A DNA stretch of 61,107 nucleotides from Candidatus Hydrogenedens sp. (GCA_049968235.1 JBMFRC010000018.1:1-61107); one strand, 5' to 3'. Positions 6,265 to 61,107 are shown, counted from the first letter of the stretch. Translations and numbers: made by a program. Notes: generated from the letters alone by a model not told the origin.

Positions 6265-8937
6265 ATGAATAACAGTAAATATTCCAGTTATGCGTTTCGG
6301 CTGTTGCTCTATGTAAGTTTCTTTTTATCCGGTGGTAGTGCCTTAATGTATCAAATAATATGGACAAGGCAATGTATGCTTTTATTGGGTTCAACAGCCT
6401 ATGCGGTTAGCACGGTTTTAAGTATTTTCTTTTTAGGTTTAGGACTGGGAAGTTTCTGGGGAGGAAAAATAGCAGAACGGACATCAAATCCGATGCGGTT
6501 GTATGCGGTAATTGAGTTATTTATAGGCTTCTGGGCTTTGATAGTTATTGATTTTGTGAGTAATAAAGGAGGGATTGTCATCTTACTTATGCGGTTATTC
6601 CCGGAAAGTAGATGGTTTTTGTTTTTCGTAAGAATTCTTATATCTATTTTCTGGTTTACTCTTCCCTCGTTATGTATGGGGATGACTTTCCCTCTGCTAG
6701 TTCGATATGAACAAACTATGACAGGGAAAAATAATCGATATATCTCATTCCTATATTCAATAAACACATTAGGGGCTGTTTCATCTGCTTTTCTAACAGG
6801 TTTTTTATTTATCCCTAACATTGGATATACGATGACATTTTATATTGCAATTGGGATAAATGTATGTATAAGTGTAATTGCAGGGTTAATCTCACAACTT
6901 CGAGATGCGGTTGTAATGGTGGAGAAAAAGATGAAGCAGGAATTAATAGGAATAGAAAAAAAAGTAGAAAAGAATAAACTTCAGACAAGGGTTATTTTTT
7001 TAGGATTGTTCATATCCGGTTTTGTTTGTCTTGCTTTAGAGGTGCTGTGGACACGACTTTTGATTATGATTTTTTTAGGGACAAATTATGCATATTCTTC
7101 CGTATTGATTTCCGTGCTTGCAGGAATATGTTTCGGAGCCTTATGTATCTCAATAGTTATTAGTAAATTTCCATTACGGATGTGGATATTAGGGTGGGGC
7201 TATAGTTTTACGGGTTTTGGTGTGCTTCTAACTCTCATTTTTATTTCATACCTGCCGGAATGGATGAACTATTTTTATTTTGAGGGAACAGATAGGTTTT
7301 ATTATGGAGTTTTTGGGAAATTTACACTCACTTTTTTGACCCTGCTTATTCCTATGACTGGATTTGGTTTTACCTTCCCTTATGCATTGACATTTTTACG
7401 AAATATAAGAAGAAAAAATATTTTTTCATCCATAGGGACTGCTTATGGATTAAATACGATAGGCAGTATAACAGGTTCTCTGATAGGTGGATTTGTTTTG
7501 ATACCTGTATTCGGTTGTGAAAAAGGAATTATCATGATGGGGGGCTTATTGATTTTATCTGGCTTTATCTTTGTAATTGTAGATAAGACATCTCATTGGG
7601 CTAATGCAGGCTTGATTTTTGCTTTTTTACCGATATTTTTTGTGGATAATGTAATGGAAAAGATAAATCGTTATTATTTGCCGGATAAGCATCACCTTTT
7701 GTTCTTTGCCGAAGGGACCGAAGGAACGGTGGCTGTAAGTTCCCCGGAGAAAGTAAGTCCGGAAGATGAACGAGTTCTGTGGATTAATCGGGTGCAGGCA
7801 ACAACTGCAGTGGAACGCGGAGTTCGAATGAACCGTTTTCAGGGAGTTATCCCGCAAATGTTTAATCGCAATCCTCAGCAGGTTTTATTTATGTGTTTTG
7901 GTTCGGGTATTACCTGTGGGACATTGGGTATTGGTGGTTTTGAACGTATTGATGCGGTTGAAATATCTCCGGAAGTTTTGAAGGCAGGACATTACTTTAA
8001 AGATTTAAACTGCGATGTGCTGACAATGAGTAATGTAAAAATTTATGTTGATGATGCAAGAAACTTTTTAATTCGTTCTACGAAGAAATATGATTTTATT
8101 ACTACGGAGCCAATGCCTCTGGCAATGGCAGGAGTGTCCATGTTTTATACACAGGAATTCTATCAATTTTGTTTCCAGCGACTGAATGAAGGGGGAATGA
8201 TTTCACAATGGGTGCCGTTTCATAGTTCCAGTGAGGAAATTGTTCAATCTGCAGTTTATACATTCATAAAGGTTTTTCCGTATACAGTAGGTTTATTTGT
8301 AAATGCAGATTTGTTCCTGGTAGGTTCGAACAAACCTCTTTTACTTAATCCGGAAGGACTATTACAAAAATTAGAAAGAAATACTCTATTAAAGGAAGCC
8401 CTTATTCAGGCCGGTTTTACTGATGTGGAGGAGATAATTGCATGTTTTGTCATGGACCGGGAAGGGCTGGTAAAGTTTTCAGAACGAGGACAGGTAATTA
8501 CAGACGGTTTCCCCTGGGTAGAGTTTATATCTCCTCAGTATGTATATAACCGTAAAAGTGTTCCACAAAATCTCAAACGATTAAAAGAATGTGCTTCAAA
8601 TATAGAAAATACAATTTCAATTGCTAATGGAGGAGGAATTAAAGATACCATTGTAAAGAGATATAATTCGCGATTGAAAGATTTTGATGGATTAATGTTA
8701 TATTATGAGGGTTTGTTAATTGGAGATGATGTGCGAAAGAGTTTTATTGATTCGTTGAAAATAGATGGAGATAACAAACAGGCACAATATTACTTAAGGA
8801 CTATATCTGTAACTCAGATAGAACAATATATACGTTGGGATGAAAAGGATAAAGCAAAACAAATCTTACAGGAAGTTGCTCCTTACCTCGAAGATGACTC
8901 TCGATGGCAGGAATGGAAGAGCCAGATACAGCTCTAA
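6265..8937 (+). CDS. Fused multi-TM transporter domain plus spermidine-synthase-like (polyamine aminopropyltransferase-like) C-terminal domain
   Basis: About 12 predicted TM segments in the first ~470 aa, then a methyltransferase-like region (FMCFGSGITCGTLG…DAVEISPEV…DFITTEP) typical of the fused MFS/spermidine synthase family. Confidence 0.7.
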   Translation: MNNSKYSSYAFRLLLYVSFFLSGGSALMYQIIWTRQCMLLLGSTAYAVSTVLSIFFLGLGLGSFWGGKIAERTSNPMRLYAVIELFIGFWALIVIDFVSNKGGIVILLMRLFPESRWFLFFVRILISIFWFTLPSLCMGMTFPLLVRYEQTMTGKNNRYISFLYSINTLGAVSSAFLTGFLFIPNIGYTMTFYIAIGINVCISVIAGLISQLRDAVVMVEKKMKQELIGIEKKVEKNKLQTRVIFLGLFISGFVCLALEVLWTRLLIMIFLGTNYAYSSVLISVLAGICFGALCISIVISKFPLRMWILGWGYSFTGFGVLLTLIFISYLPEWMNYFYFEGTDRFYYGVFGKFTLTFLTLLIPMTGFGFTFPYALTFLRNIRRKNIFSSIGTAYGLNTIGSITGSLIGGFVLIPVFGCEKGIIMMGGLLILSGFIFVIVDKTSHWANAGLIFAFLPIFFVDNVMEKINRYYLPDKHHLLFFAEGTEGTVAVSSPEKVSPEDERVLWINRVQATTAVERGVRMNRFQGVIPQMFNRNPQQVLFMCFGSGITCGTLGIGGFERIDAVEISPEVLKAGHYFKDLNCDVLTMSNVKIYVDDARNFLIRSTKKYDFITTEPMPLAMAGVSMFYTQEFYQFCFQRLNEGGMISQWVPFHSSSEEIVQSAVYTFIKVFPYTVGLFVNADLFLVGSNKPLLLNPEGLLQKLERNTLLKEALIQAGFTDVEEIIACFVMDREGLVKFSERGQVITDGFPWVEFISPQYVYNRKSVPQNLKRLKECASNIENTISIANGGGIKDTIVKRYNSRLKDFDGLMLYYEGLLIGDDVRKSFIDSLKIDGDNKQAQYYLRTISVTQIEQYIRWDEKDKAKQILQEVAPYLEDDSRWQEWKSQIQL

Positions 8938-9037: not shown

Positions 9038-12000
9038 TTATAGGTTTTTATGAAGTTTTGAAGTATTCCATGTGAGAAAGGTGGTCAGAGATATTAAAAC
9101 TATAAGGGTAATCATACCTATGGGATTTGAGATAGGAACTCCCTGAGTGTATTTTATTTCTACGGGTGTACTCATAATGGTCTCTTTTTCGTCAGAGACT
9201 TCTACCCAGTAAGTCCCCGCATCTTCAGGCGACATTGCTGTGATTATAAATTCAGGATAATCTTCGCCGATATTCTCTCCATCTTTTTTCCATTGATAAG
9301 AAATTTCGGGAATTCCACCTACTACTTCTACTCGTAATGTATATGTATCGCCATCAATGACGGTTGCATTTTCAGGTTGAAGAACGAACTGCATGTGAGG
9401 GTATATCCCCAAATTCGCATAATTGGTAAAGACAACTTCTTCTCTTGAATCACCTACCTGGCAACGATAAGAGCCGGTGTATGTGCTATCAATATTTGTA
9501 ATAGTCCATTCATTGGAATTGGGTCCTACGGGTGTTCCACCATTTTTTAGCCATTGAAAATTTAATTCTCCGATACCACCACTTACATTGAAAGATAGTG
9601 TAACAGTATCTCCAATATAATAATTTCCCCCTACAACATAGGATAGAATTTTTATCCGATTGGTTACTGTTTTGCTTTTCGGTTCAACCAAACTATTGCC
9701 CGCAGGGTCTGTTCCTGTATTCACAGTAATTGTAATATCTTCTCCATTGGTTAGATTTCCTGCGTTCCATTTTAACAGGTAATGTCCATCTTCAATTTTT
9801 TGTACAGTATCGGGAGTTGTATTCAGAGTTCCTTTTCCGGGACCGGAAAGGCTATACCTCGAAACAAGAGTCATAAGGGGTTCCATAGGTTCGGAGAAAA
9901 AGACACGAATATTTCGGAAGTCTACAACTCGAACATCCATTACATATGGGGGCACACCAATGCTGGAGCAGATAACTTTATTAAACTGTGAGTCAATCAA
10001 ATTACCGAAAGTATCGCGGACATTTTGTACTTCAATCTGTACCAAAGACCCCCCCTTCATTTCACCCGTATCCCATTCAAGAATATAAGTCATAGGTTCG
10101 GTGTCCTGAACAATGCTTGATGGATGTAAAGAAAGCGTCCCTTTTCCGGATGCTCCGGGAGGGTTACTCAATGTGTAGTTACCGATAAAGAATACAGATG
10201 AGCCCATTTCTTTACTGTAAGTTATTTTTAATGTTCGTTCATTTACTGCAGATAGGGATAAAGCACGGGGCAATATTACCTCAAAAGTATCTGAGGCAGT
10301 GTTGTTAAGAGGGTCTATGAGATTTCCTGCCAAATCCTGAACATTATTTACCTGTACGGTAACTTCCTGCCCCTCAGATATTTCTGTCCCAGTTGTCCAT
10401 GAAATGGCATAAGTCGAGGGGTATCCAGTTACTTTTTCCACAGTTGAAGGTGGATTGCCCGGAAGTGTATCTATCCACCACAAATAATTGAGAGGATTGA
10501 GGGCACTTTCATCACCGGTTTCTCTCATTGCTTCTGAAAAAATGATATGTATTAGACGAGGTCCTTTGACATCGATGGAGACTAATTGAGGGAAAAATCC
10601 ACCTAAACCACTACCTATATGTGTGGCACTATTGGGAGTGCCAATAGGATTTCCTTGTGCATCAAATACATTGTTTACTGTGATGGTTACATCTCCACCG
10701 TTTTTCATCTCGCCGGAGTTCCAATTCAGGCGAACATGCTTATTATCAAGCACAGTTACCTGTGAGGGATTTTCCGCAAGAGTCCCTTTGCCATCTCCGG
10801 ATATAATATAATTTGCAGTATCCTCCAATTCTGTTAAACGCATAGGTTCAGAAAATTCAACTTCAACTTCTAAAGGTTGTGTTACAGTTACTGAAACCAC
10901 ATAAGCGGGAGTAGCATCAATAACATGTACTAAAAAGGTTTTATCATAATGTAAACCCATCATATCCGTTGCCCATACCTGAACAGTTACATAAGGATTC
11001 TCACTTCCATTTAATGCTTCTGGTAAATCAACGACCAATTGATTTCCATCAAGACGAAAGGCGCCATTTCCATTTTGGACTAAATTTAATATATGAGGTT
11101 CCTCTGGGTCTGGGTCAACTACGGTAAATTCTGCAACAATCGTTCCTTCTTCAACATTGTCCAAAACCTCCATATCCTCCGGATCTGGGATTATATCTGT
11201 AGGGTTAAAAAATCCTTCATCTGCACCTATATCAGGCGATGCGTAAAATGGAGGTAAAGGTCTATTTTGTCCTTCAAAATCGATATTGGTTGTATCTGTT
11301 GTCCCTGAATGTCCTAATGCACCGCTACCTGTCATTAGTTTTCCTACATCATCTAATTTCGGGTCGGCATAAATCATGATTTGTTCATCCGGTGCTGATT
11401 CAAAACCACCTTTACCGTCTGCGGAATTACGGTTCCATGCTAAATTATTCCATTCAAACCCTATTTCCCAAACAGGTGTAATATTCGATGCGTTTGGAGC
11501 ATCGAATATCGTTCCAGCAGAATACAATATGTCTCCGGTCCTGCCATGAATAAGCCAATTTGTTACAGGGTTACTTTCAGGGGAGGTGAGAGTAACATGC
11601 CGCAGACGAATCGTAGCAAAGGCAGAAGGAAATAGCGTATCGCTAAAACCACGGGTATCTATATATGATGGGACACCACCTCCGTAGAATATAGTATTCG
11701 TAATGTTTAGTTCAGGACCATAATTTCCACCTATGGCACCGGATCGAAAAGTTCCAGCACCAAAGCCCCACCAGCAGGAATCCATCTCTAACACGACAGG
11801 TCCTGTTAATTCTCCGCCTAAAGAGGTAATGGCATACCCTACATACGGTCTGATTATCCCCTTTGCTCGATAAAATTTTATTGAGCCCCGCAAGATGCGA
11901 GCGTAAGTTCCGGTATTATTGGTCATACCGTCCATATCCACCCAGTATATCGGAGATGGTGTTATATCATCTGCGGTATCAAACCAATCTTCGCCTGGCT

Positions 12001-13045
12001 CTAATCCTAAAATTTCCACCCGAGCACCACTTTGTTGAAAATTAAAGGCTCGCTCTCCACACGCACCTGTAAACACAGGTTTGTATAACCGATACACATT
12101 TGGCGTAGTGTGCGTATCTTCACCTAATTTATCGAACAAATTTGCGTTATTACTTCGAAATGAACAATTATAAAAAACTACCTGCGACCCGCCATCACTT
12201 GCTGTAGGGCTATCTGCTTTTATCGCGATGGCACTGTCGGAATATGTGCTACTGCCTTCGGGGGCAAATATACATTGTTCTAAAGTCATTTTCACCACAT
12301 TTTTTAATGACAGTCGAGTTCCTCTACCCTTAGCATAACTAAAGTCTACATATCGCAATTGTGCCTCCATTATCCCTGTTCCATTCATTGGTCCTAACAC
12401 TATCAAAGGTAAAGTCTGCTCTACCTCGTCCCCTCCTAAGAACCGCACCATATAAAATTGATGCTTACTTGCGGGAATATTTTGTAAATAAATATAATTC
12501 CCGTTGGGTGCTCCTGGTGTTTCCACTGGCTCCCACACTCGCTCCTTCTTAATAAAATTTGCTTTCTCAACGATGAACACCCCATTCCCATTTATCGAAG
12601 TAGCTATCAGTGGAGAAGAATAGGAAGAATATAAAGCAATTCTGTTATATACTCCCTCGTCATAGCCGATTATCTTCAAAATCTTTCCTGTTGTCGAATT
12701 ATTACTAAATACAGGATGGTTATTGTCCGGTCGAATCTCCGGGCGAATGCCTGTGGCAGCAATTACTTCTATATCCCCGCTATCTTCCAGAACCAATTCG
12801 GGGACTTCAAAGTAAACACCTTCACTTTGACTGGGTCCTTGCCATTCTATCCGTATTGTATGATTTCCCGGATTGGTACCCGTTGCATGTGTCCATGCAT
12901 CAGATAATTGTTCAAATCCCCATTCATTGGGATTACCTGTTGAGCCATTAGGAGCACCTTCGTAAATGCGGTATAAATCTGCATGAATGTTTGAATATGA
13001 AAGGATTAAGACAAAGAATAAAACCATACCCACTCGCCAGTTCAT
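9038..13045 (-). CDS. Giant secreted surface protein (1335 aa): signal peptide, beta-helix-like region, multiple Ig-like/Big-like repeats, C-terminal TM anchor with basic tail
   Basis: N-terminal MNWRVGMVLFFVLILSYSNIHA. Repeated GG.G…YQW.K.G … G(T/S)Y…V.D modules (e.g. YTGSYRCQVGDSREEVVF; AGTYWVEVSDEKETI). C-terminus VPISNPIGMITLIVLISLTTFLTWNTSKLHKNL. Confidence 0.7.
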   Translation of the reverse strand: MNWRVGMVLFFVLILSYSNIHADLYRIYEGAPNGSTGNPNEWGFEQLSDAWTHATGTNPGNHTIRIEWQGPSQSEGVYFEVPELVLEDSGDIEVIAATGIRPEIRPDNNHPVFSNNSTTGKILKIIGYDEGVYNRIALYSSYSSPLIATSINGNGVFIVEKANFIKKERVWEPVETPGAPNGNYIYLQNIPASKHQFYMVRFLGGDEVEQTLPLIVLGPMNGTGIMEAQLRYVDFSYAKGRGTRLSLKNVVKMTLEQCIFAPEGSSTYSDSAIAIKADSPTASDGGSQVVFYNCSFRSNNANLFDKLGEDTHTTPNVYRLYKPVFTGACGERAFNFQQSGARVEILGLEPGEDWFDTADDITPSPIYWVDMDGMTNNTGTYARILRGSIKFYRAKGIIRPYVGYAITSLGGELTGPVVLEMDSCWWGFGAGTFRSGAIGGNYGPELNITNTIFYGGGVPSYIDTRGFSDTLFPSAFATIRLRHVTLTSPESNPVTNWLIHGRTGDILYSAGTIFDAPNASNITPVWEIGFEWNNLAWNRNSADGKGGFESAPDEQIMIYADPKLDDVGKLMTGSGALGHSGTTDTTNIDFEGQNRPLPPFYASPDIGADEGFFNPTDIIPDPEDMEVLDNVEEGTIVAEFTVVDPDPEEPHILNLVQNGNGAFRLDGNQLVVDLPEALNGSENPYVTVQVWATDMMGLHYDKTFLVHVIDATPAYVVSVTVTQPLEVEVEFSEPMRLTELEDTANYIISGDGKGTLAENPSQVTVLDNKHVRLNWNSGEMKNGGDVTITVNNVFDAQGNPIGTPNSATHIGSGLGGFFPQLVSIDVKGPRLIHIIFSEAMRETGDESALNPLNYLWWIDTLPGNPPSTVEKVTGYPSTYAISWTTGTEISEGQEVTVQVNNVQDLAGNLIDPLNNTASDTFEVILPRALSLSAVNERTLKITYSKEMGSSVFFIGNYTLSNPPGASGKGTLSLHPSSIVQDTEPMTYILEWDTGEMKGGSLVQIEVQNVRDTFGNLIDSQFNKVICSSIGVPPYVMDVRVVDFRNIRVFFSEPMEPLMTLVSRYSLSGPGKGTLNTTPDTVQKIEDGHYLLKWNAGNLTNGEDITITVNTGTDPAGNSLVEPKSKTVTNRIKILSYVVGGNYYIGDTVTLSFNVSGGIGELNFQWLKNGGTPVGPNSNEWTITNIDSTYTGSYRCQVGDSREEVVFTNYANLGIYPHMQFVLQPENATVIDGDTYTLRVEVVGGIPEISYQWKKDGENIGEDYPEFIITAMSPEDAGTYWVEVSDEKETIMSTPVEIKYTQGVPISNPIGMITLIVLISLTTFLTWNTSKLHKNL

Positions 13046-14606: not shown

Positions 14607-15893
14607 ATGAGAAAATCGTCACAGTTATCTTTATGGCAAGAGGAAAAAATCCTTCAGAATAAAGAGTCTTTGTTTAGTCCTATTAAAAATAAAAAAGTGC
14701 CAATACTTTTCAGAGAAACTATACCGGAAATACCTTCGACTACTTATGGTTCCTTTGGGATTTATAAATATCCGGCGAAATTTATTCCTCAGGTAATAGC
14801 ATTTATCTTAAAGGAATACACAAAACCTGGAATGGAAGTTTTTGACCCTTTTGCAGGCTATGGCACAGTGGGAGTTGTATCAAGAATTTATGGGAATCCA
14901 TATGAATTGTGGGACTTAAACCCCCTTATAAATACGATTCATAATACTGCGAGAATGGAATATCCCAAAGTTAACTTATGCGAACTTTTAAATGAAATTA
15001 AAAACTCAAAAAAAGAATTTATTCCCAATTGGTCTAATTTGAACTACTGGTTCCCCGAGGAATTCCTCTATGTATTATCAACATCATGGGGTTTTATTTA
15101 TTCTTTAGAGGAAAAGTTGAAATACTTGTTTCTTATCCCTTTATTAAAAGTTACGAAGTATTTTTCTTATGCAGATGAGAAGGTGCATAAGTTATATAAA
15201 TCGAAGCATTCTAAACAAAAGATAACGGAATTAGTAAAGAAGGATTGGAAAACGATTTTTTATAATATGCTTGAAAAAGAAGTAGGAAAGTTACAAAGAA
15301 GACTTTTTGAAAATCAATTATTAAAACCACAAAATATAAAATATAGAATAAGGTCAGGGATTGACACCTTAAAAGAAGAATTGGATAACGAAGTGGATGT
15401 CTTAATTACCTCTCCCCCTTATTTACAAGCACAAGAATATATTCGTTCAACGAAATTAGAACTTTTTTGGCTTGGTTATGATGAAACATATATTAAAGAA
15501 TTAAGCAAAAAAGAAATTCCTTATTGTACGGTTCCGGAGATTGACATTCATTCGCAAACATTTTATAAATATAGAGAACAAATAAAAGAGCACCATTTAT
15601 TATTGTTATACGACCGTTATTTTCATGGAATATTAGGTACTTTTTCTCGATTAGGAAATAAAGTTAAAAACTATATGTGTATTTTTGTAGGACCTGCGAA
15701 AATCCGGACGACCTCCATACCGATTGACGATATTATAATTGAGCATTTAGAGAAGATGGGGTGGCATCACGAGATAACCTATGTTGATAGAATTGTTTCG
15801 CGGGTAATGTTCGAGTCGAAAATAAATCCTGCTTCGGGAGAAGAGGATAGCAGAATAAAAACCGAACATTTGATAATTCTAAAGAGAGGTTAA
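14607..15893 (+). CDS. DNA amino-methyltransferase (N6-adenine or N4-cytosine), alpha-like motif order (motif I, long spacer, motif IV)
   Basis: Motif I FDPFAGYGTVG at about residue 80; motif IV DVLITSPPYLQAQEY at about residue 270. Confidence 0.75.
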   Translation: MRKSSQLSLWQEEKILQNKESLFSPIKNKKVPILFRETIPEIPSTTYGSFGIYKYPAKFIPQVIAFILKEYTKPGMEVFDPFAGYGTVGVVSRIYGNPYELWDLNPLINTIHNTARMEYPKVNLCELLNEIKNSKKEFIPNWSNLNYWFPEEFLYVLSTSWGFIYSLEEKLKYLFLIPLLKVTKYFSYADEKVHKLYKSKHSKQKITELVKKDWKTIFYNMLEKEVGKLQRRLFENQLLKPQNIKYRIRSGIDTLKEELDNEVDVLITSPPYLQAQEYIRSTKLELFWLGYDETYIKELSKKEIPYCTVPEIDIHSQTFYKYREQIKEHHLLLLYDRYFHGILGTFSRLGNKVKNYMCIFVGPAKIRTTSIPIDDIIIEHLEKMGWHHEITYVDRIVSRVMFESKINPASGEEDSRIKTEHLIILKRG

Positions 15894-15896
15894 TAT

Positions 15897-16877
15897 ATGA
15901 TACCCATAAAAAAGGGGGATATTAAAAACAGTGCAAAATTTAAAACCGTATTATCCACTTTGATTAGAGAACAACAGGAAATTATTTTTAATGAGAGTAA
16001 AATGTATTTTGAATTTGACGAATTGGGGGATTTATTACTTTCTGCTTGCAGAATGAATGATTTTGACATAGTTTTTTCCGAAGGGAAAAGAACTTTCTTA
16101 AATAACAAGAATCTTTTATCATGGATTTATGAAAAGATCATTCCTAATACGGTTATAGTTAGAATTGATGATGAAGATATTATTAGATTACTGTTATTTA
16201 GTATGGAAATTACATATCAAATGTTTTTGGGGGGAACAAGAGCAACGACAACCGCAAAAGGTTTTCGAGAAAGACGAAGAACATTTGAATCTATTCTGGT
16301 TGACCAATTTACAGGGAAATTAGGTGAAGTTATGCTTAAAAAATTTTTGGAGAAGAATTTTGTAGGGAAAAAGGTTGAACTGGATTGGGAAATATCGAGA
16401 CAGATAGAGAAATACAGAACAGATATTGTAAATTCAGAGAAAAAAATAAGTATCAAATCGTCGCCATCTTTAGGGGGGATATGGGCGGAAGCGGATATAG
16501 GTTATGATTATGGAATTATGGTGAAATGTTCTGTCCCTCAGCAGCCTATTTTGCAATTTTTCGTTGAAGTTTGTGGTTTTACAAGGCTTTTAAATTTTGC
16601 TGAGGATAAAATTCCTTCTTCGGATACCTTGTTTAGTAAATACTTAAATAATATGAGGGAGAGAGTAAAAAAATACAAATGTGGCGAAATACAAACCGAC
16701 CTAAAGGCTATTATTTGTGGATATTTTAATACAAAGAATTTTATGCCTGTTGAGCAAGGTATTGAACTACCTTATTTAGGAGTTATAAGAGAAAAAAGAT
16801 ATTTAACGCCTATAAATACATTGAAATGGCGAAAAGAGGAATGGAAAGAATTTTTTATTGAAGCGAAAATTAGATAG
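15897..16877 (+). CDS. Hypothetical protein, candidate cognate restriction endonuclease (no recognisable family)
   Basis: Starts 3 nt after the methyltransferase stop on the same strand. Low GC like the methyltransferase. Possible degenerate PD-(D/E)xK-like segment (DFDIVFSEGK), not confirmed. Confidence 0.3.
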   Translation: MIPIKKGDIKNSAKFKTVLSTLIREQQEIIFNESKMYFEFDELGDLLLSACRMNDFDIVFSEGKRTFLNNKNLLSWIYEKIIPNTVIVRIDDEDIIRLLLFSMEITYQMFLGGTRATTTAKGFRERRRTFESILVDQFTGKLGEVMLKKFLEKNFVGKKVELDWEISRQIEKYRTDIVNSEKKISIKSSPSLGGIWAEADIGYDYGIMVKCSVPQQPILQFFVEVCGFTRLLNFAEDKIPSSDTLFSKYLNNMRERVKKYKCGEIQTDLKAIICGYFNTKNFMPVEQGIELPYLGVIREKRYLTPINTLKWRKEEWKEFFIEAKIR

Positions 16878-22663: not shown

Positions 22664-23719
22664 ATGAAAATTGATAATCCAAAAATGAAAGTTTTAATTT
22701 TGTGGGGGGTAGTCCTTGTTAGTTTTGTGCTTTTTTGGATTTGCCACACTTATATTACTAATTATCAGAATTTCATTGAGCCTCAGAATTATTTATTACG
22801 AGCAGAATACTATTTACAGAATGGAAACAAAGATAAGGCTTTACATGAACTTGAATTTGGAATGAATACTTTTAGACCTGTGAGTTCTGAAGCACTGCTT
22901 TGTCTTATGAAAATAAAAAAAGGTATTTTGGATAAAAATGAATATAACGAATTAGAGAAGAAACATCAAATAATCGTAACTCTTGAGAATTGCACTTCTT
23001 CTGAAAATTTGCAATTAGATACTAAACTATTGAATACATCCGGAATTTCTTTACCTACATTGTCAAAACCCACTCAATCCATGGTTCTGTCTATGTGGAA
23101 ATTATTAACACGAAGTACTCTGAAATGTATGCAAAATGGAAATCTATCATGGAAACAAATATTGAACTTTTTATACTACTCTGGAGGTATTTTCTACCTT
23201 AACTCTAACATTGGTGATACAGGGTTTGTGATTGATGATGATGTTTTTGTAATCAGTGAAGGAAGCGAAGAGGGTAGTGGAGCACAAATATGGTTTCAAG
23301 GAAGAAATTTTGGGGGACATCGGAGAGGTTTTTATGTGTTGATATTAACTCCGCCTCCATGTAAAGTATATCGCTCTGACCGATTTGATGTTTGGGATAA
23401 CTATAACGAATCCATCAGGATGACCCGTTTTCTGGAAGAAGTTCCTGAAGGATATATAGGTATTTTTGCTGTGGCAGATGAGGCATCGGAAAATATGACA
23501 GAGGAATTGGAACGGATGCTTTTTTCTTTTGGTTTTGCCCCAAAAACCTATGTCCGAAGAGAAATGAAATTTTTTGGATATGGCTATGCCTTTTCGGGTA
23601 TCGGAGTAAAAGGAGCAGTTTCAGGAACGGCAATTCAAAACTGGGCTGAATATGACCCTTCAAAGAAAAAAATTCCATGGACTGTTTGTGGTGTGATGAG
23701 AGGGGAAAAGAAGCAATGA
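22664..23719 (+). CDS. Signal-anchored protein with TPR-like region and C-terminal ILEI/FAM3 (PANDER-like) domain
   Basis: N-terminal TM VLILWGVVLVSFVLFWI. The C-terminal ~110 aa (RRGFYVLIL…FDVWDN…PEGYIGIFAVADEASENMTEELERMLFSFGF…FFGYGYAFSG) follows the ILEI-domain pattern as I remember it from FAM3C. Confidence 0.45.
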   Translation: MKIDNPKMKVLILWGVVLVSFVLFWICHTYITNYQNFIEPQNYLLRAEYYLQNGNKDKALHELEFGMNTFRPVSSEALLCLMKIKKGILDKNEYNELEKKHQIIVTLENCTSSENLQLDTKLLNTSGISLPTLSKPTQSMVLSMWKLLTRSTLKCMQNGNLSWKQILNFLYYSGGIFYLNSNIGDTGFVIDDDVFVISEGSEEGSGAQIWFQGRNFGGHRRGFYVLILTPPPCKVYRSDRFDVWDNYNESIRMTRFLEEVPEGYIGIFAVADEASENMTEELERMLFSFGFAPKTYVRREMKFFGYGYAFSGIGVKGAVSGTAIQNWAEYDPSKKKIPWTVCGVMRGEKKQ

Positions 23720-54785: not shown

Positions 54786-55901
54786 TTATAAATCACCTAA
54801 TAATCGCACATATTTGAAATCATCAACATTAATATGACCCCAGGCGTCCATACTGTCATCAATTATCTCAATTTCGGCATCTTTTCCCTTGAACTCAGTA
54901 ACATCCCAAAACACAGGTCGCATATCTTCACGGTTCTCGGTATTTTTCACAGACCTTACTACTTTCCCGTCCACATGAAGACGAACATCTAATCCAGAAA
55001 CTTTGCCTCCACCTAAAAGAAACCGAATAGCATAACCGCGTATCTTAAAAGGTTCAGAACGCAAAGAACCAAAAGCCACATCTTTCCTTACCATTCCGGG
55101 TTCTTCGTTCGGTTTTCCTTGATATAATTCATAGGTTCCTATCCAATATTTTCCCTGATGATTGGAGTGTTTCCCTGCTTCTCGTGCAGAAGGATTGTCT
55201 CCTAATGTGGGTTGTCTTTCAAAAGCGGAACCTTGTGCTTTCCAGTGTTCAAGATTGCCCATTTCAAAATCGCTGTTAGGAAATAGTAACATATTGTCCG
55301 GTACCAAATATCCGCGAAAATCATCTACATTAATACACCCCCATGCTCCTTTATCATTGTCTATAATTGAGATTATTGCAGGTTGGTTAAGAAACTCTTT
55401 TACATCCCAAAATTCCCTGCTCAAAAGGGGATGATTCTGTCCGTATGTCTCTCGAACCACCTGCCCATTTACGATAAGGCGAACTGCTGTAGTTTTTTTT
55501 GCCCCACCACTTATAAGAAATCCAATATATGGAGTTCCAATAGTAAATGTTCGGGAGATTAACTCTCCAACTGCATCATTCTTCTGGACATCACCGACTT
55601 TTTGTCCTGGCAGTCCTTGATAATTTTCGTAAGAACCTACCCACCAGAAACCTTGTGGAAGAGCACATTTAGGAGATTCTCGAGCAAGAACATTATCTCC
55701 ATAGGTGGGTTGATTTAAAAATGCCTTTCCAAAAGCGCGCCAATTATCCAGATTTCCATGTTCAAAATCGCTATTCGGGAAAAGAAGTTTTGCTTTTTTA
55801 GAAAATTTTGGGATAGCGGAGGGCTGAGAATAAGTATAAAAGGAAGAGAACAAAAAGATAACTAATAGAAAAGCATACATCGGAAATTTTATATTTTTCA
55901 T
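54786..55901 (-). CDS. Secreted protein made of two tandem ~160-aa homologous modules (jelly-roll/carbohydrate-binding-like?)
   Basis: Signal peptide. LLFPNSDFEHGNLDNWRAFGKAF…QPTYGDN…INVDDF is repeated as LLFPNSDFEMGNLEHWKAQGSAF…QPTLGDN…INVDDF. Confidence 0.45.
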   Translation of the reverse strand: MKNIKFPMYAFLLVIFLFSSFYTYSQPSAIPKFSKKAKLLFPNSDFEHGNLDNWRAFGKAFLNQPTYGDNVLARESPKCALPQGFWWVGSYENYQGLPGQKVGDVQKNDAVGELISRTFTIGTPYIGFLISGGAKKTTAVRLIVNGQVVRETYGQNHPLLSREFWDVKEFLNQPAIISIIDNDKGAWGCINVDDFRGYLVPDNMLLFPNSDFEMGNLEHWKAQGSAFERQPTLGDNPSAREAGKHSNHQGKYWIGTYELYQGKPNEEPGMVRKDVAFGSLRSEPFKIRGYAIRFLLGGGKVSGLDVRLHVDGKVVRSVKNTENREDMRPVFWDVTEFKGKDAEIEIIDDSMDAWGHINVDDFKYVRLLGDL

Positions 55902-57710: not shown

Positions 57711-60700
57711 TTATTGCCTTTGTAACTTTCTTTGAATTATCAAAACAGAAGATATTACACTAATTATTGTTATAAGTATTCCGAGATACCATACATTATA
57801 TGCAGGTATAGGCTTTGATACTGTAAGCAAGCAGGAATTCGATGCAATTGTTGACTTATTGTCACTTATCTCGACCCAGTAAGTACCTGTATCTTCCACT
57901 GTTGCATTGTTGATAACTAAGGAAGGAGCATCTTCTCCAACATTATATATTTCTGTACTACTATTTTTAGGTTGATATTTCCATAGATAATGAATATCTC
58001 CCAGACCTCCTGTTACTGCAACAGAAAATGTCCATGTATCTCCTTCTGTAATAGAACCTCCTTGAGGTTGGAGTGTAATAGTGATTCGTTGTCCTATCAA
58101 TACATGTGCGACATCAGAAAATAAATTGTCTTTTACATCATATACCTGAACAACATAATCTCCGGATAAGGAATCATCTAAAGGCGGAGATATATAAATG
58201 GGAGAAGTATTTTCTTCAGAGATAATCTCTCCATTTTTATACCATGCGTATCGTTTGATTCCAAAGCCATCTGTAGTTTCCACATCCAGTTCAAAATGTT
58301 CTGCTTCATCAACATACATTGTTACATCTAACGGGTGGCGAGTAATGGCAAGGTTTTCACCAGCATACACTCTACATTTATTCGATTGTAGTGATTCCCG
58401 TTCATCTTGAGAAACTATGTAGTATTCACCGTCCCGTTCTTTTGTCGGATAACCTAATTCGAGAACTGTGATATTTGTCCCTATTTTTTCGGGTCCATTT
58501 CCTTTGTCATACCACCATTGATAACTTAAGTTACCCATCCCACCTGTTAATGATACAGAAAGCGTGAGAGGTTCATTATAAGGGGCAAATACAATAGGTT
58601 CTAAATCCTCGGTATAATTCATATGCTCTGCAAAAAGAATATCAGCCGAATCCGAAACTAAAGTATTATCAGGTACCACATCCCATACCTGACAGGTATA
58701 TACTCCTGATAACTCAGGAACTAAAGGTGAGAATGTATAAGTTTGCTGATTATTTATTCCGGGAGCGGGTTCTCCATTTCGAAGCCAGAGGAATTGAATT
58801 GTTCCATACCCACCTTCTGTTTCAACAGAAACAGTATATTCACTTAATTCATCTGTATAAGCACGTATCCCTACAGGATGGTTTGTAATCGCCAATGGAT
58901 TATCGACTATGATAAGTTCAGCAAGATTGGATACCACAGTATTATATCCTGCATCCGTTATTTCAACTAAGTATAAGTCTTCGTTCGTTTCGGTAAGGTT
59001 TGATAGATAAAGTTCTTTCCCCGAAGGTTGTAAGGCAGAGTGTAATAAACCCTGTGAATTTCCATACCATTTGAAAAGTAAGGGTTGTATTCCTCCGGAT
59101 GTTTCTACTCGGAACAATACAGATTGCCCCGGATTGCGAACTGTTGATTCCGGATGTAATATAATGGTGAGTTTTTCTTGAACATGTAAATACCCTGAAG
59201 TGGATACTACCGTTGTTCCCGTGCCATCGCTATCGGTAACAGCACAACGATATAGCCCTGTATCGCTCAGTAAAATATTATTTATTGTTAGTGTATCAGT
59301 ATCTGCTCCGTTATATTTTGCTGAATTTGGTAATGCTTCACCTATATCTATTTCCCCATTATTATTTTCATCTTTAAACCATTGATAAACATATCCGGGG
59401 GAACCTCCACTGGGTAAAACCACCAATGGAACTGATACCGTGCCATCATATACCCATACCGAACAAGGCCCATGAACAGTTAATATATCCTGCACAGATA
59501 CTTCAGTACCTCCCGTTTCTACACGGCCCAAAGGTGCAATACCTATTTCATCATAAACTTCAACAGAGTAAATGCCGTTATCTTCAGGTCCCACAGGGGA
59601 AAGTAAGAAATAGGGCATATCAGGTGCAGATAAATTCATACCATTTCGTTTCCATATATAATGTAATTTCCCTTTTCCTCCTGTTGCACTGACCGAGAGA
59701 ATAAGACTATCCCCTTTGGTATATACACCACCTATAGGTGATTGAAGGATATTAACAGCGGGATAAACAACCACGACCGAAGAATTATCACTGCTTTCCG
59801 TGTGAGTGCTATCTGTAACCTCTACGGTGTAAATACCTGTGTGTGCAGTAGTAACATTGTAGATATATAAAAATGGTACAGTAGTGACTGCTATTTCCTG
59901 TCCATCCTTCAGCCAGCGATAGGATTTATTCCCTGTCCCACCGACTACCTGAGCATTTAGTGTTAAAGTGTCTCCTGCATGTATTTCTGTAGCCAGAGGG
60001 GAGATTGCAATATCCATACCAACTTTGATAGAAGCCGTTCTCGAAGATGGAATTGTTGTCGTCCATATTGCTCTATCAGGTATAGTTCCAATTAAATATG
60101 GATTTTCTCCACTTACATAAAGAACAACATCATTAGCATCGGCACCTCCATTATTAACAATAAATATCTGTTTTGCTAAATTAAATATGGAATTGCTTCC
60201 TTCTAAGACTACGAGTTCAACCAGGTCATTCCTGGGAGTAACAACCAGGCTCTTATTCCAGAAATTAGGTTCTGTAAAACCACCTGTAGCAGGACCTCCA
60301 ACTAATTGTGGAATAAGATATCCTTTTTCTGTCGGGTCATAAGGTCTCGGGGCTTGTAATACAGAAAGATTACGCGCACTACCACTAACGATATTATCCA
60401 GAAATGCTGGATTTTGGGGAGTAGTCATATTTGATATGAAAGTAAACCTTCCTCTATAAATATTATCTGTTAAAGTTGTGTAGTTATTGCAAGCAATTGA
60501 GCCTGTTCCTGCAAAGACAATAGAACCATGTAATTTAACCATTCCTGGTGTACCACGACCTCCATTACCGCCAGCACCCGATATGCCACTGGGTCCGCCC
60601 GAACCTCCTATTCCACCAGCACCACCTCTTCCTCCATTTCCTCCTCTACCACCTATAACGGTAATGGGATAACAACTCATCCCAGATAGGTACCCATATA

Positions 60701-61107
60701 TACCTGTGAGTCCCGGGGAACCATCACCACCATTTGCCCAATTATCGCCCGGGCTTATACCTGCAGAGCCAGTATTTGATGGAACAATAGGAGAGCCATT
60801 TTGAGGTGGACCTGCCGAAATATCAATAACACCTCCAAATTGCAACAGACCACGAGCAGAAAGAATAACACATCCTCCTCCATTTCCACCACCACCTCCG
60901 TTACTGCCTTTACTTGCAGTACCACCTTGTCCACCGATACCACCATTTCCTCCTGCTCCTCCTACTCCTCCTGCTCCACCATAGGCATTCTGGGATGTTC
61001 CACATTGACTACATGTATTTGTTCTTGCCATGCCACCACCTCCTCCGCTACCTCCGCTACCTCCTCCACCACCTTGTCCACCACCTTGTCCACCTCCGCC
61101 TCCACCT
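57711..61107 (-). CDS. Giant surface protein (more than 1106 aa; 5' end beyond the window): glycine-rich N-terminal region, at least 8 Ig-like repeats, C-terminal TM anchor with basic tail; paralogue of the protein at 9038-13045
   Basis: No stop between the first Met (61031) and the window edge; the reading frame continues as a Gly/Gln-rich run. Repeats carry GG.G…Y.W…G and G.Y.V.V.D modules. C-terminus KPIPAYNVWYLGILITIISVISSVLIIQRKLQRQ. Confidence 0.7.
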   Translation of the reverse strand, partial: GGGGGGQGGGQGGGGGSGGSGGGGGMARTNTCSQCGTSQNAYGGAGGVGGAGGNGGIGGQGGTASKGSNGGGGGNGGGCVILSARGLLQFGGVIDISAGPPQNGSPIVPSNTGSAGISPGDNWANGGDGSPGLTGIYGYLSGMSCYPITVIGGRGGNGGRGGAGGIGGSGGPSGISGAGGNGGRGTPGMVKLHGSIVFAGTGSIACNNYTTLTDNIYRGRFTFISNMTTPQNPAFLDNIVSGSARNLSVLQAPRPYDPTEKGYLIPQLVGGPATGGFTEPNFWNKSLVVTPRNDLVELVVLEGSNSIFNLAKQIFIVNNGGADANDVVLYVSGENPYLIGTIPDRAIWTTTIPSSRTASIKVGMDIAISPLATEIHAGDTLTLNAQVVGGTGNKSYRWLKDGQEIAVTTVPFLYIYNVTTAHTGIYTVEVTDSTHTESSDNSSVVVVYPAVNILQSPIGGVYTKGDSLILSVSATGGKGKLHYIWKRNGMNLSAPDMPYFLLSPVGPEDNGIYSVEVYDEIGIAPLGRVETGGTEVSVQDILTVHGPCSVWVYDGTVSVPLVVLPSGGSPGYVYQWFKDENNNGEIDIGEALPNSAKYNGADTDTLTINNILLSDTGLYRCAVTDSDGTGTTVVSTSGYLHVQEKLTIILHPESTVRNPGQSVLFRVETSGGIQPLLFKWYGNSQGLLHSALQPSGKELYLSNLTETNEDLYLVEITDAGYNTVVSNLAELIIVDNPLAITNHPVGIRAYTDELSEYTVSVETEGGYGTIQFLWLRNGEPAPGINNQQTYTFSPLVPELSGVYTCQVWDVVPDNTLVSDSADILFAEHMNYTEDLEPIVFAPYNEPLTLSVSLTGGMGNLSYQWWYDKGNGPEKIGTNITVLELGYPTKERDGEYYIVSQDERESLQSNKCRVYAGENLAITRHPLDVTMYVDEAEHFELDVETTDGFGIKRYAWYKNGEIISEENTSPIYISPPLDDSLSGDYVVQVYDVKDNLFSDVAHVLIGQRITITLQPQGGSITEGDTWTFSVAVTGGLGDIHYLWKYQPKNSSTEIYNVGEDAPSLVINNATVEDTGTYWVEISDNKSTIASNSCLLTVSKPIPAYNVWYLGILITIISVISSVLIIQRKLQRQ

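What the first reader, a model, noticed from the sequence alone, without database searches (positions are those of the whole stretch)
9038..13045. Two paralogous giant Ig-repeat surface proteins share a C-terminal module ending in a motif-TM-basic tail (possible sorting signal)
The protein at 9038-13045 and the one at 57711-61107 both end in a closely related last Ig-like module (…DAGTYWVEVSDEKETI… versus …DTGTYWVEISDNKSTI…). About 15 residues further on come a Pro-containing motif (GVPISNP versus KPIPAYN), a single hydrophobic helix and a Lys/Arg/Gln-rich tail (SKLHKNL versus QRKLQRQ). This tripartite layout (signature motif, TM, basic cluster) is the hallmark of exosortase/archaeosortase/rhombosortase-type C-terminal sorting signals (PEP-CTERM, VPXXXP-CTERM, GlyGly-CTERM). 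VPISNP literally fits VPxxxP. Alternatively the tail may be a plain C-terminal membrane anchor
Basis: partly seen in the sequence, partly recalled or inferred. Interest (0 to 1): 0.55.

Follow-up and report, generated by a model that had tools for sequence, protein, structure and literature searches.

The report
Conserved C-terminal sorting-like tail, Hydrogenedens adhesins
Two giant surface proteins of an uncultured Hydrogenedens bacterium end in the same cassette (last Ig domain, K-G-[ILV]-P-x-x-N motif, membrane helix, basic tail), which most likely is a previously unmodelled variant of the exosortase-type (IPTL/PEP-CTERM-like) surface-sorting signal, although no sorting enzyme could be looked for.

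Summary
Both genes lie on the minus strand of a Candidatus Hydrogenedens MAG contig. B is cut by the window end. Each ends in a terminal Ig domain, an unstructured motif (QGVPISN / KPIPAYN), one TM helix and a K/R tail. The two terminal Igs are reciprocal best matches.

In 24 Hydrogenedens-lineage tails the motif is K(20) G(19) [ILV](24) P(23) x x N(21). Among A orthologues, identity is 62% in the Ig domains, 57% in the motif and 23% in the TM plus tail. AlphaFold places the motif in a coil between the last strand and the helix. Each genome carries at least 2-4 paralogues.

The 'VPxxxP' reading fails: the second Pro occurs in only 3 of 24 tails. No AT-rich tail hits any NCBIfam sorting model. 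In GC-rich relatives, including a 49%-identical orthologue, the tail becomes [VIL]-P-[VL]-x-G-x-x-G + Ala/Leu TM + RRR. That form matches IPTL-CTERM; one tail clears the curated cut-off.

Best reading (about 0.45): a lineage-specific variant of the exosortase-type signal. Weak points:
- no sorting enzyme in any neighbourhood examined
- whole genomes were not searchable
- within Hydrogenedens the tail always follows the same Ig domain

A plain membrane anchor remains a serious rival.

The parts
9038..13045 (-). Gene A, 1335 aa: Sec signal peptide, large N-terminal region (no Pfam hit; read as beta-helix-like) ending in DIGADE, Big_5 domains, 2 Ig_3 domains, C-terminal tail
   Evidence: Translation. 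Pfam Ig_3 and Big_5 above cut-off, Cadherin below cut-off. Weak choice_anch_Q hit at 569-609, E=0.078. 100% identical to an NCBI MAG protein of Candidatus Hydrogenedens sp..
12980..13045 (-). N-terminal signal peptide of A (MNWRVGMVLFFVLILSYSNIHA)
   Evidence: Read directly from the translation. Orthologues have equivalent hydrophobic N-termini. The cleavage site is inferred.
9146..9394 (-). Terminal Ig_3 domain of A (...DAGTYWVEVSDEKETIMSTPVEIKYT)
   Evidence: Pfam Ig_3 at 1220-1284. AF2 beta-sandwich with pLDDT>90. Reciprocal best match to the last Ig of B.
9125..9145 (-). Signature motif of A: Q-G-V-P-I-S-N (family consensus K-G-[ILV]-P-x-x-N)
   Evidence: Coordinates checked. Conservation counts over 24 tails. 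Coil, with pLDDT<50 at P-I-S, between the last strand and the helix.
9068..9121 (-). Hydrophobic TM segment of A (IGMITLIVLISLTTFLTW)
   Evidence: Hydropathy scan. AF2 helix at residues 1308-1332.
9041..9067 (-). Short basic C-terminal tail of A (NTSKLHKNL); the stop codon is 9038..9040
   Evidence: Orthologues have 2-7 K/R here and few acidic residues.
57711..61107 (-). Gene B, partial (1131 aa in the window, N-terminus beyond the window end): Gly-rich region, conserved 'GTPGMVKLHGS' domain, about 8 Ig_3 repeats, C-terminal tail
   Evidence: Translation. Pfam. Identical to NCBI ACP5UA_11260, 'partial', on a contig of 61107 bases. Orthologues P0019-P0023.
57816..58082 (-). Terminal Ig_3 domain of B (...DTGTYWVEISDNKSTIASNSCLLTVS)
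57795..57815 (-). Signature motif of B: K-P-I-P-A-Y-N
   Evidence: Coordinates. Aligns in register with GVPISN of A, with the Pro column invariant.
57735..57794 (-). Hydrophobic TM segment of B (VWYLGILITIISVISSVLII)
57714..57734 (-). Basic C-terminal tail of B (QRKLQRQ); the stop codon is 57711..57713

Best explanation
A and B are paralogous, Sec-exported giant surface proteins (probably adhesins or envelope proteins) of a Candidatus Hydrogenedens bacterium, which I take to have two membranes.

Each ends in a conserved cassette:
- a terminal Ig domain
- an unstructured seven-residue motif, K-G-[ILV]-P-x-x-N
- one TM helix of 14-22 residues
- a short Lys/Arg tail

I read the last three parts as a lineage-specific variant of the 'phi-Pro' group of exosortase-type sorting signals (PEP-CTERM, IPTL-CTERM, VPDSG-CTERM). 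Its composition fits this AT-rich genome.

Proposed mechanism:
1. After Sec export, the TM helix and the cytoplasmic basic tail hold the protein in the inner membrane, with the motif at the outer face.
2. A membrane-embedded sorting transpeptidase (an exosortase-family enzyme is the best guess) cuts at the motif.
3. The helix and tail are discarded.
4. The mature protein is passed on for attachment to the cell surface.

Shown here: the anatomy, the paralogy, the conservation pattern, the structural position of the motif, and the continuity with IPTL-CTERM-like tails in relatives.

Inferred, not shown: the cleavage, the identity and even the existence of the enzyme, and the final location of the protein.
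For: (1) Conservation over 24 Hydrogenedens-lineage tails: K 20, G 19, I/L/V 24, P 23, N 21 of 24. This is followed by a 3-7 residue gap, a 14-22 residue hydrophobic stretch (one outlier split at 11) and 2-7 K/R.

(2) Among A orthologues, mean pairwise identity is 62% in the Ig domains, 57% in the motif and only 23.5% in the TM plus tail. The helix and tail are constrained in composition only, as expected for a discarded segment. The motif is constrained in sequence.

(3) AF2 puts QGVPISN in a low-confidence coil between the last Ig strand (which ends at T1300) and the helix at 1308-1332. Neither fold explains the motif's conservation.

(4) The only tail lacking the Pro (P0020, AISAYN) belongs to a gene split into two ORFs in two assemblies.

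(5) There are several copies per genome. A, B and P0086 are in this MAG. A fourth copy lies upstream of B by synteny. A genome scan found 2-3 loci in each of four other genomes.

(6) P0012, a 49%-identical orthologue of A, ends in GVPVLGLGG-AALAALVALAG-TRTARRRR. It hits TIGR04174 IPTL-CTERM at 21.2 bits (cut-off 20.5, E 2.5e-4, profile 1-27/27), with V-P-V-L on I-P-T-L. Four other GC-rich relatives hit the same model at 11.9-16.9 bits. Intermediate tails (NIPAANTVG, QIPAAK, PGVPVGGAG) bridge the two forms.

(7) Ig-repeat homologues in other phyla end in T9SS tails (PF18962) instead. A also carries a weak choice-of-anchor-Q signature.

(8) A 1025-aa TSP3-repeat protein next to a B-like gene in a GC-rich relative carries a similar tail (QIPIHA + TM + RRKQRS) without any Ig domain.

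(9) Signal peptides are present on A and on the 1978-aa paralogue.
Against: - No exosortase, sortase, rhomboid or CPBP gene was seen in the window or in any of about 30 neighbourhoods, roughly 480 kb and partly redundant. One search listed only 25 of its 44 families.
- None of 14 AT-rich tails hits any curated sorting model at E<=10.
- Within the Hydrogenedens genus the tail was found only behind the same terminal Ig domain. The criterion 'carriers share nothing but the signal' is not met there, and simple paralogy could explain its spread.
- The IPTL-CTERM hit is borderline. Part of such scores comes from the generic Ala/Leu helix plus Arg cluster.
- The tail profile searched against 1.84 billion proteins returned only three training members at E<=1e-3. 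That search was underpowered, but it gives no positive evidence.
- The neighbouring two-component and sigma-54 regulators are not PrsK/PrsR equivalogs.
- A's own basic cluster is weak (K, H, K).
Confidence: 0.45

Rival explanations
1. Plain type I membrane anchor. The helix and basic tail simply tether the protein permanently in the cytoplasmic membrane. K-G-phi-P-x-x-N is a structural cap or hinge that ends the last Ig strand and starts the helix. Nothing is cleaved. The cassette spread by duplication within one paralogous family.
For: - In about 480 kb of Hydrogenedens-lineage DNA, every protein ending in a TM helix plus basic tail also has the same terminal Ig domain.
- No sorting enzyme was found nearby.
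- No curated sorting model hits the AT-rich tails.
- Pro and Gly are common at strand ends and helix N-termini (general knowledge).
Against: - The motif lies in a low-confidence coil, not in the Ig fold or the helix.
- The motif keeps Ig-like conservation while the helix has decayed to 23% identity.
- The invariant Asn three residues after the Pro has no obvious capping role.
- Orthologous tails in GC-rich relatives match a curated exosortase-type model.
- In a cell with an outer membrane (TolC-type OEP and Alginate_exp porin genes in the window), a 1300-2000-residue adhesin-like protein fixed to the inner membrane would be confined to the periplasm. That is odd for Ig, Big_5 and beta-helix-like arrays (inference).
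Confidence: 0.3
2. Sortase-type signal. phi-P-x-x-N/G is a divergent LPXTG / NPQTN-like pentapeptide, cut by a sortase-family cysteine transpeptidase that links the protein to peptidoglycan or to a pilus-like polymer.
For: - P0023 ends in K-G-I-P-A-T-G + TM + RRH. It scores 14.2 bits on TIGR01167 LPXTG_anchor (cut-off 15.9, E 0.052) and 12.1 bits on srtB_target.
- The motif has the same length and the same position relative to the helix as sortase signals.
- A terminal Asn recalls the sortase B motif NPQTN (from memory).
Against: - All these scores are below their cut-offs.
- Position 4, which is nearly always Thr in sortase signals, is S/Y/I/V/T/H here.
- No PF04203 sortase was seen in any neighbourhood.
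- Sortases are rare in bacteria with an outer membrane, and peptidoglycan attachment would not expose the protein (general knowledge).
- GC-rich relatives hit IPTL-CTERM rather than LPXTG.
Confidence: 0.08
3. A new sorting system. The terminal Ig domain together with K-G-I-P-x-x-N + TM + basic tail is a bipartite signal read by a so far unrecognised enzyme that serves only this family of giant Ig proteins.
For: - In this genus the tail is strictly coupled to one particular Ig subtype. That Ig is more conserved between paralogues than the internal Igs are.
- No known sorting model fits.
- No known sorting enzyme was seen.
Against: - The coupling is equally explained by common descent.
- GC-rich relatives show the same register as IPTL-CTERM.
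- One carrier lacks an Ig domain.
- There is no candidate enzyme.
Confidence: 0.15

Closest known systems
IPTL-CTERM sorting domain (NCBIfam TIGR04174), the presumed target of exosortase H (XrtH)
   Same: - Extreme C-terminal position.
- The same order of parts: [IV]-P start, about 20 hydrophobic residues, basic cluster.
- The same register: phi-P at positions 1-2 and, in many copies, Gly near position 8 (IPTLxxWG against VPISNPIG, VPVLGLGG).
- The tail of a 49%-identical orthologue passes the curated cut-off.
- IPTL-CTERM is predicted on the S-layer protein of the diderm Methylomirabilis lanthanidiphila (PMC8671808).
   Different: - The window's own tails, and all other AT-rich Hydrogenedens tails tested, do not hit the model.
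- The signature is K-G-phi-P-x-x-N, with a conserved Asn and no Thr-Leu.
- The helix is Ile/Leu/Ser/Thr-rich, not Ala/Leu/Gly-rich.
- The tail is Lys-rich and can be long (up to 25 residues).
- XrtH was not demonstrated.
- The link between IPTL-CTERM and XrtH is from my memory of TIGRFAMs, supported only by the name of NF033207 'midcut-by-XrtH', which hit the same stretch.
PEP-CTERM / exosortase (XrtA, EpsH) system and its phi-Pro variants (VPDSG-, VPLPA-, VPEID-, VPXXXP-CTERM)
   Same: - Tripartite design, in bacteria with an outer membrane, on signal-peptide-bearing surface proteins, with several copies per genome (Haft 2006, PMC1569441; criteria in bioRxiv 10.1101/2023.06.07.544157).
- phi-P-x-x-G/N has the same register as V-P-D-S-G (motif from memory).
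   Different: - No PEP motif and no hit to TIGR02595 or any other variant model.
- The second Pro of VPXXXP is not conserved (3 of 24).
- No EPS-locus or PrsK/PrsR context.
- Few carriers, all of one paralogous family.
LPXTG / sortase B (NPQTN) cell-wall sorting signals
   Same: A pentapeptide with Pro at position 2 and G or N at position 5, followed by a helix and a basic tail. There is one near-threshold hit (P0023).
   Different: - Position 4 is not Thr.
- The host has an outer membrane.
- No sortase was seen.
- All scores are below their cut-offs.
Orphan tripartite tails such as WGxxGxxG-CTERM (NF038039)
   Same: A recognisable tripartite C-terminal domain for which no sorting enzyme is known (discussed in bioRxiv 10.1101/2023.06.07.544157).
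   Different: A different motif. WGxxGxxG-CTERM is broadly distributed and has a curated model. The present tail has no model and was seen in one phylum only.

Membership tests
Tripartite prokaryotic C-terminal sorting signal (Haft's eight attributes, bioRxiv 10.1101/2023.06.07.544157) | 1. Located at the very C-terminus | tested here: met
   The motif starts 34-35 residues before the stop codon in A and B. In 24 relatives the motif lies within about 30-55 residues of the stop.
Tripartite prokaryotic C-terminal sorting signal (Haft's eight attributes) | 2. [quoted passage not shown] | tested here: met
   A, B and P0086 are in the same MAG. A fourth copy is expected by synteny. Other genomes gave 2-3 loci each in a pattern-limited scan. 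The numbers are small compared with typical PEP-CTERM genomes.
Tripartite prokaryotic C-terminal sorting signal (Haft's eight attributes) | 3. [quoted passage not shown] | tested here: met
   K 20/24, G 19/24, P 23/24, N 21/24, plus an aliphatic residue before the Pro in 24/24. The sequences are related, so these counts overstate independence.
Tripartite prokaryotic C-terminal sorting signal (Haft's eight attributes) | 4 and 5. A hydrophobic TM-length segment, then a basic cluster | tested here: met
   Hydrophobic stretches of 14-22 residues (one outlier split at 11) and 2-7 K/R with 0-2 D/E. AF2 helix at 1308-1332. The cluster is Lys-rich, and it is weak in A itself (K, H, K).
Tripartite prokaryotic C-terminal sorting signal (Haft's eight attributes) | 6. 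N-terminal signal peptide on carriers | tested here: met
   A, its orthologues, and the 1978-aa paralogue have hydrophobic N-terminal leaders. The N-terminus of B lies outside the window.
Tripartite prokaryotic C-terminal sorting signal (Haft's eight attributes) | 7. Many carrier pairs share nothing but the signal | tested here: not met
   All Hydrogenedens-genus carriers share the same terminal Ig domain. The one exception is a TSP3-repeat protein in a GC-rich relative. The tail-only profile search was underpowered.
Tripartite prokaryotic C-terminal sorting signal (Haft's eight attributes) | 8. Homologues elsewhere carry a different C-terminal signal or none | tested here: met
   Ig-repeat homologues carry PF18962 T9SS tails (P0014, P0016, P0027, P0034 and others) or no tail (P0013, P0017, P0033).
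Tripartite prokaryotic C-terminal sorting signal (Haft's eight attributes) | A cognate sorting enzyme co-occurs in the genome | not testable with these tools
   Whole genomes could not be fetched or searched, and I had no exosortase seed sequence. None was seen in about 480 kb of neighbourhoods; one search showed only 25 of 44 families.
IPTL-CTERM (TIGR04174) | Score at or above the curated cut-off (20.5 bits) on the model | tested here: not met
   A, B and twelve other AT-rich tails give no hit at E<=10. Only the GC-rich orthologue P0012 passes (21.2 bits). P0026, P0028, P0052 and P0048 score 16.9, 16.5, 14.9 and 11.9.
IPTL-CTERM (TIGR04174) | Exosortase H present in the same genome | not testable with these tools
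   No genome-wide search was possible.
   The second Pro is present in 3 of 24 tails (window A, P0011, L010). There is no NCBIfam hit.
PEP-CTERM (TIGR02595) | P-E-P signature and a model hit | tested here: not met
   No PEP motif in any tail. The model did not hit any of 24 tails scanned at E<=10.
GlyGly-CTERM / rhombosortase | Gly-Gly signature before the helix; model hit; rhombosortase gene | tested here: not met
   There is no conserved GG in AT-rich tails and no model hit. No rhomboid Pfam appeared in the Pfam lists of the neighbourhoods.
LPXTG / sortase B signals | L-P-x-T-G or N-P-x-T-N pentapeptide; model hit at or above the cut-off | tested here: not met
   The best score is P0023 at 14.2 bits against a cut-off of 15.9. 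A and B give no hit. Position 4 is variable.

The most novel reading that the evidence does not exclude
K-G-[ILV]-P-x-x-N + TM + Lys/Arg is a new class of C-terminal sorting signal confined to Hydrogenedentota. It would be read, possibly together with the adjacent terminal Ig domain, by a sorting enzyme that is not a canonical exosortase, sortase or rhombosortase. It would serve a small family of giant Ig-repeat surface proteins.
Probability: 0.15. Interest if true: 0.6.

Novelty: new variant of a known kind. Interest (0 to 1): 0.4.

Why it matters
Hydrogenedentota is an uncultured, globally distributed phylum, and nothing is known about its cell surface.

If the tail is a sorting signal, it marks the set of giant surface proteins that these cells display. 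That would mean a sorting enzyme remains to be identified in these genomes. It would also show that the curated sorting-signal models miss AT-rich variants. A new profile could then correct the annotation of proteins currently named 'hypothetical' or 'immunoglobulin domain-containing'.

If it is only an anchor, it is an ordinary feature of one paralogous family.

Tried and rejected
- Exact look-up of A in public assemblies failed. Identity was recovered through the homology search and cluster members.
- I searched a profile of 15 tails (36 positions) against 1.84 billion representative proteins. Only hits with E<=1e-3 are listed, and these were three training members. The search is underpowered and says nothing either way about other carriers.
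- A profile of terminal Ig plus tail against the 5.8-billion set returned only four short fragments. They were useful as intermediate tails but not as a census.
A three-sequence version found only two loci of the known 1978-aa paralogue.
- I looked for a sorting enzyme in neighbourhoods: 10 contig look-ups, 16 genome loci, and Pfam/NCBIfam scans of polytopic and neighbouring ORFs. I found SNF, SSF and MFS transporters, a PMT-like glycosyltransferase and a fused MFS/spermidine synthase, and no PF09721, PF04203, PF01694 or PF02517.
- I tested the neighbouring regulators as PrsK/PrsR (PEP-CTERM system). They are generic and far below the equivalog cut-offs.
- Small ORFs next to the P0012 gene are low-complexity junk, not small membrane peptidases.
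- Literature: no paper combines Hydrogenedentes with exosortase. None combines Hydrogenedentes, Hydrogenedentota or Hydrogenedens with PEP-CTERM or sortase.
- I could not obtain an exosortase seed sequence. The Haft 2006 paper has no supplement held as text.
- Rejected readings, for the reasons given in the membership table: VPXXXP-CTERM, PEP-CTERM proper, GlyGly-CTERM, and the Cys-containing MYXO/JDVT-type signals (there is no invariant Cys).

Full report
**Source and context**

The window is a complete 61,107-base contig of an NCBI metagenome-assembled genome named Candidatus Hydrogenedens sp. Protein B is identical to MGC8739206.1 (ACP5UA_11260, 'partial', contig length 61107). Protein A is 100% identical to an NCBI Hydrogenedens MAG protein. 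GC content is about 36%. The contig carries ordinary housekeeping genes. It also carries outer-membrane markers: a TolC-type OEP and an Alginate_exp porin.

**The observation**

A (9038..13045) and B (57711..61107) are both on the minus strand. B runs off the window end, so its N-terminus is missing.

- A has a signal peptide and a roughly 600-residue N-terminal region with no Pfam hit, which I read as beta-helix-like. That region ends in DFEGQNRPLPPFYASPDIGADE, a weak choice-of-anchor-Q hit with E 0.078. Then come Big_5 domains and two Ig_3 domains. A cadherin match is below its cut-off.
- B has an extremely Gly-rich region, a conserved 'GTPGMVKLHGS' domain and about eight Ig_3 repeats.
- A ends in terminal Ig, QGVPISN, P, IGMITLIVLISLTTFLTW, NTSKLHKNL.
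- B ends in terminal Ig, KPIPAYN, VWYLGILITIISVISSVLII, QRKLQRQ. All coordinates were checked.
- In the whole window only these two proteins, plus one polytopic WecA-like protein, end in a TM segment.
- The two terminal Ig domains are reciprocal best matches: score 184 and 35/71 identical, against 124 or less for any other Ig pair.

The shared C-terminal module is therefore real.

**Conservation**

Eleven orthologues of A (49-86% identity), five relatives of B, a third paralogue from the same MAG (P0086) and further copies found in fetched loci give 24 Hydrogenedens-lineage tails.

| Position relative to Pro | Residue | Count of 24 |
|---|---|---|
| -3 | K | 20 |
| -2 | G | 19 |
| -1 | I/L/V | 24 |
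| 0 | P | 23 |
| +3 | N | 21 |

After the motif come a 3-7 residue gap, a 14-22 residue uncharged stretch and 2-7 Lys/Arg with almost no acidic residues.

The second Pro of 'VPISNP' occurs in only 3 of 24 tails, so the VPxxxP match is coincidental.

Among A orthologues, mean pairwise identity is 62% in the Ig domains, 57% in the motif and 23.5% in the helix plus tail.

An AlphaFold2 model of A residues 1117-1335 (mean pLDDT 87) shows two confident Ig sandwiches. The last strand ends at T1300. QGVPISN is coil, with pLDDT below 50 at P-I-S. A helix spans 1308-1332. The motif is thus conserved although it belongs to neither fold.

The only copy without the Pro (P0020, AISAYN) sits in a gene split into two reading frames in two assemblies.

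**Copy number and distribution**

This MAG has A, B and P0086 (...EKDIPSHN + TM + KQSKAKV). By synteny with L007 and L028, it also has a 1978-aa paralogue (...EKGIPLVN + TM + RHGKVKV) divergently upstream of B, just beyond the window end. That paralogue's N-terminus carries a GDS(W) motif suggestive of an SGNH-type esterase, but Pfam found only Ig_3, I-set and Big_12 in it.

A scan of one genome per species found the cassette in Ca. Hydrogenedens terephthalaticus (2 loci) and in three or four other Hydrogenedens-like MAGs (1-3 loci each).

**Link to known signals**

No NCBIfam model of any C-terminal sorting domain hits A, B or twelve further AT-rich tails, even at E<=10.

In GC-rich relatives the same position is occupied by [VIL]-P-[VL]-x-G-x-x-G, an Ala/Leu/Gly helix and RRR. 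These relatives include P0012, a syntenic 49%-identical orthologue of A.

- P0012's tail hits TIGR04174 IPTL-CTERM at 21.2 bits (cut-off 20.5, E 2.5e-4, full profile), with VPVL on IPTL and Gly on the profile's position 8.
- Four other tails hit the same model at 11.9-16.9 bits.
- The 'midcut-by-XrtH' model hits the same stretch.
- Intermediate forms (NIPAANTVG, QIPAAK, PGVPVGGAG) connect the two types.

The Hydrogenedens tail is therefore positionally homologous to tails that resemble an exosortase-type signal. Its helix (Ile/Leu/Ser/Thr) and tail (Lys) follow the AT-rich composition of the genome.

One relative, P0023 (KGIPATG), nearly reaches the LPXTG model at 14.2 bits against a cut-off of 15.9. 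The tail alone therefore cannot name the enzyme.

**Haft's eight attributes of a tripartite sorting domain**

- Met: C-terminal position; several copies per genome; at least three near-invariant signature residues; TM segment; basic cluster; signal peptides; homologues elsewhere with other signals (T9SS tails in Bacteroidota-type Ig proteins).
- Not met: carriers that share nothing but the signal. In about 480 kb of Hydrogenedens-lineage DNA every carrier has the same terminal Ig domain. The single exception is a TSP3-repeat protein in a GC-rich relative.
- The tail-only profile search of 1.84 billion proteins was underpowered. Only training members passed E<=1e-3.

**The enzyme**

No exosortase, sortase, rhomboid or CPBP gene was seen in the window or in any neighbourhood. 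One search listed only 25 of the 44 Pfam families it found, so that screen is partial. The nearby regulators are not PrsK/PrsR.

Whole genomes could not be searched and I had no seed sequence. Sorting enzymes of one-to-many systems are usually not linked to their targets, so absence from neighbourhoods is weak evidence.

**Verdict**

| Reading | Confidence |
|---|---|
| Lineage-specific variant of the phi-Pro exosortase-type signals, nearest to IPTL-CTERM | 0.45 |
| Plain type I membrane anchor with a conserved juxtamembrane hinge | 0.30 |
| New dedicated sorting system | 0.15 |
| Sortase-type signal | 0.08 |

Under the best reading the motif is cleaved at the outer face of the inner membrane after Sec export. 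If it is a signal, it is a new variant of a known kind that current curated models miss. Interest is moderate.

Noticed in passing
window 14607..16877 (+): An N6_N4 DNA methylase and a 326-aa ORF with no Pfam hit lie between the PFK gene and the photolyase gene. In an 86%-identical relative (L004) this slot holds a TspO gene instead. This looks like a restriction-modification insertion or replacement.
   Followed up: partly
window about 60540..61106 (-), N-terminal part of B: B has an extreme Gly-rich GGxGG low-complexity region, followed by a conserved 'GTPGMVKLHGS' domain. The domain is shared with B-like proteins of GC-rich relatives (P0025, P0026, P0028, P0031, P0033) and has no Pfam or NCBIfam family.
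   Followed up: no
L007 6213..12067; L008; L028 8783..14635: The orthologue of B is split into two ORFs in different frames in several independent assemblies. The L007/L008 copy is also the only tail that has lost the invariant Pro (AISAYN). It may be a decaying copy, or there may be a recurrent assembly error in the Gly-rich repeat.
   Followed up: partly
beyond window end; L007 57..6005 (-), L028 2632..8568 (-): A 1978-aa paralogue lies divergently upstream of B in syntenic contigs, so it should sit just outside this window. It has a GDS(W) N-terminal motif, Big_12 and Ig_3 domains, and the same terminal Ig plus EKGIPLVN tail.
   Followed up: partly
window 22664..23719 (+): A 351-aa membrane-anchored protein carries an ILEI domain (PF15711, E 7e-11). 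That family is best known from animal secreted proteins.
   Followed up: no
window 54786..55901 (-): A 371-aa secreted protein has an internal duplication (FPNSDFE.GNL..W.A.G.AF ... INVDDF occurs twice) and no Pfam or NCBIfam hit.
   Followed up: no
window 6265..8937 (+): A fused MFS/spermidine-synthase protein (NF037959) of 890 aa is the conserved convergent neighbour of gene A in all Hydrogenedens-genus loci. It is absent next to the distant orthologue P0012. The PFK gene on the other side is conserved even there.
   Followed up: partly
L013, L014 (CAZZMK01): A GTDB genome titled 'uncultured Nitrospirales bacterium' carries an A orthologue and a second cassette-bearing paralogue of Hydrogenedens type. 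The bin label or the bin itself looks wrong.
   Followed up: no
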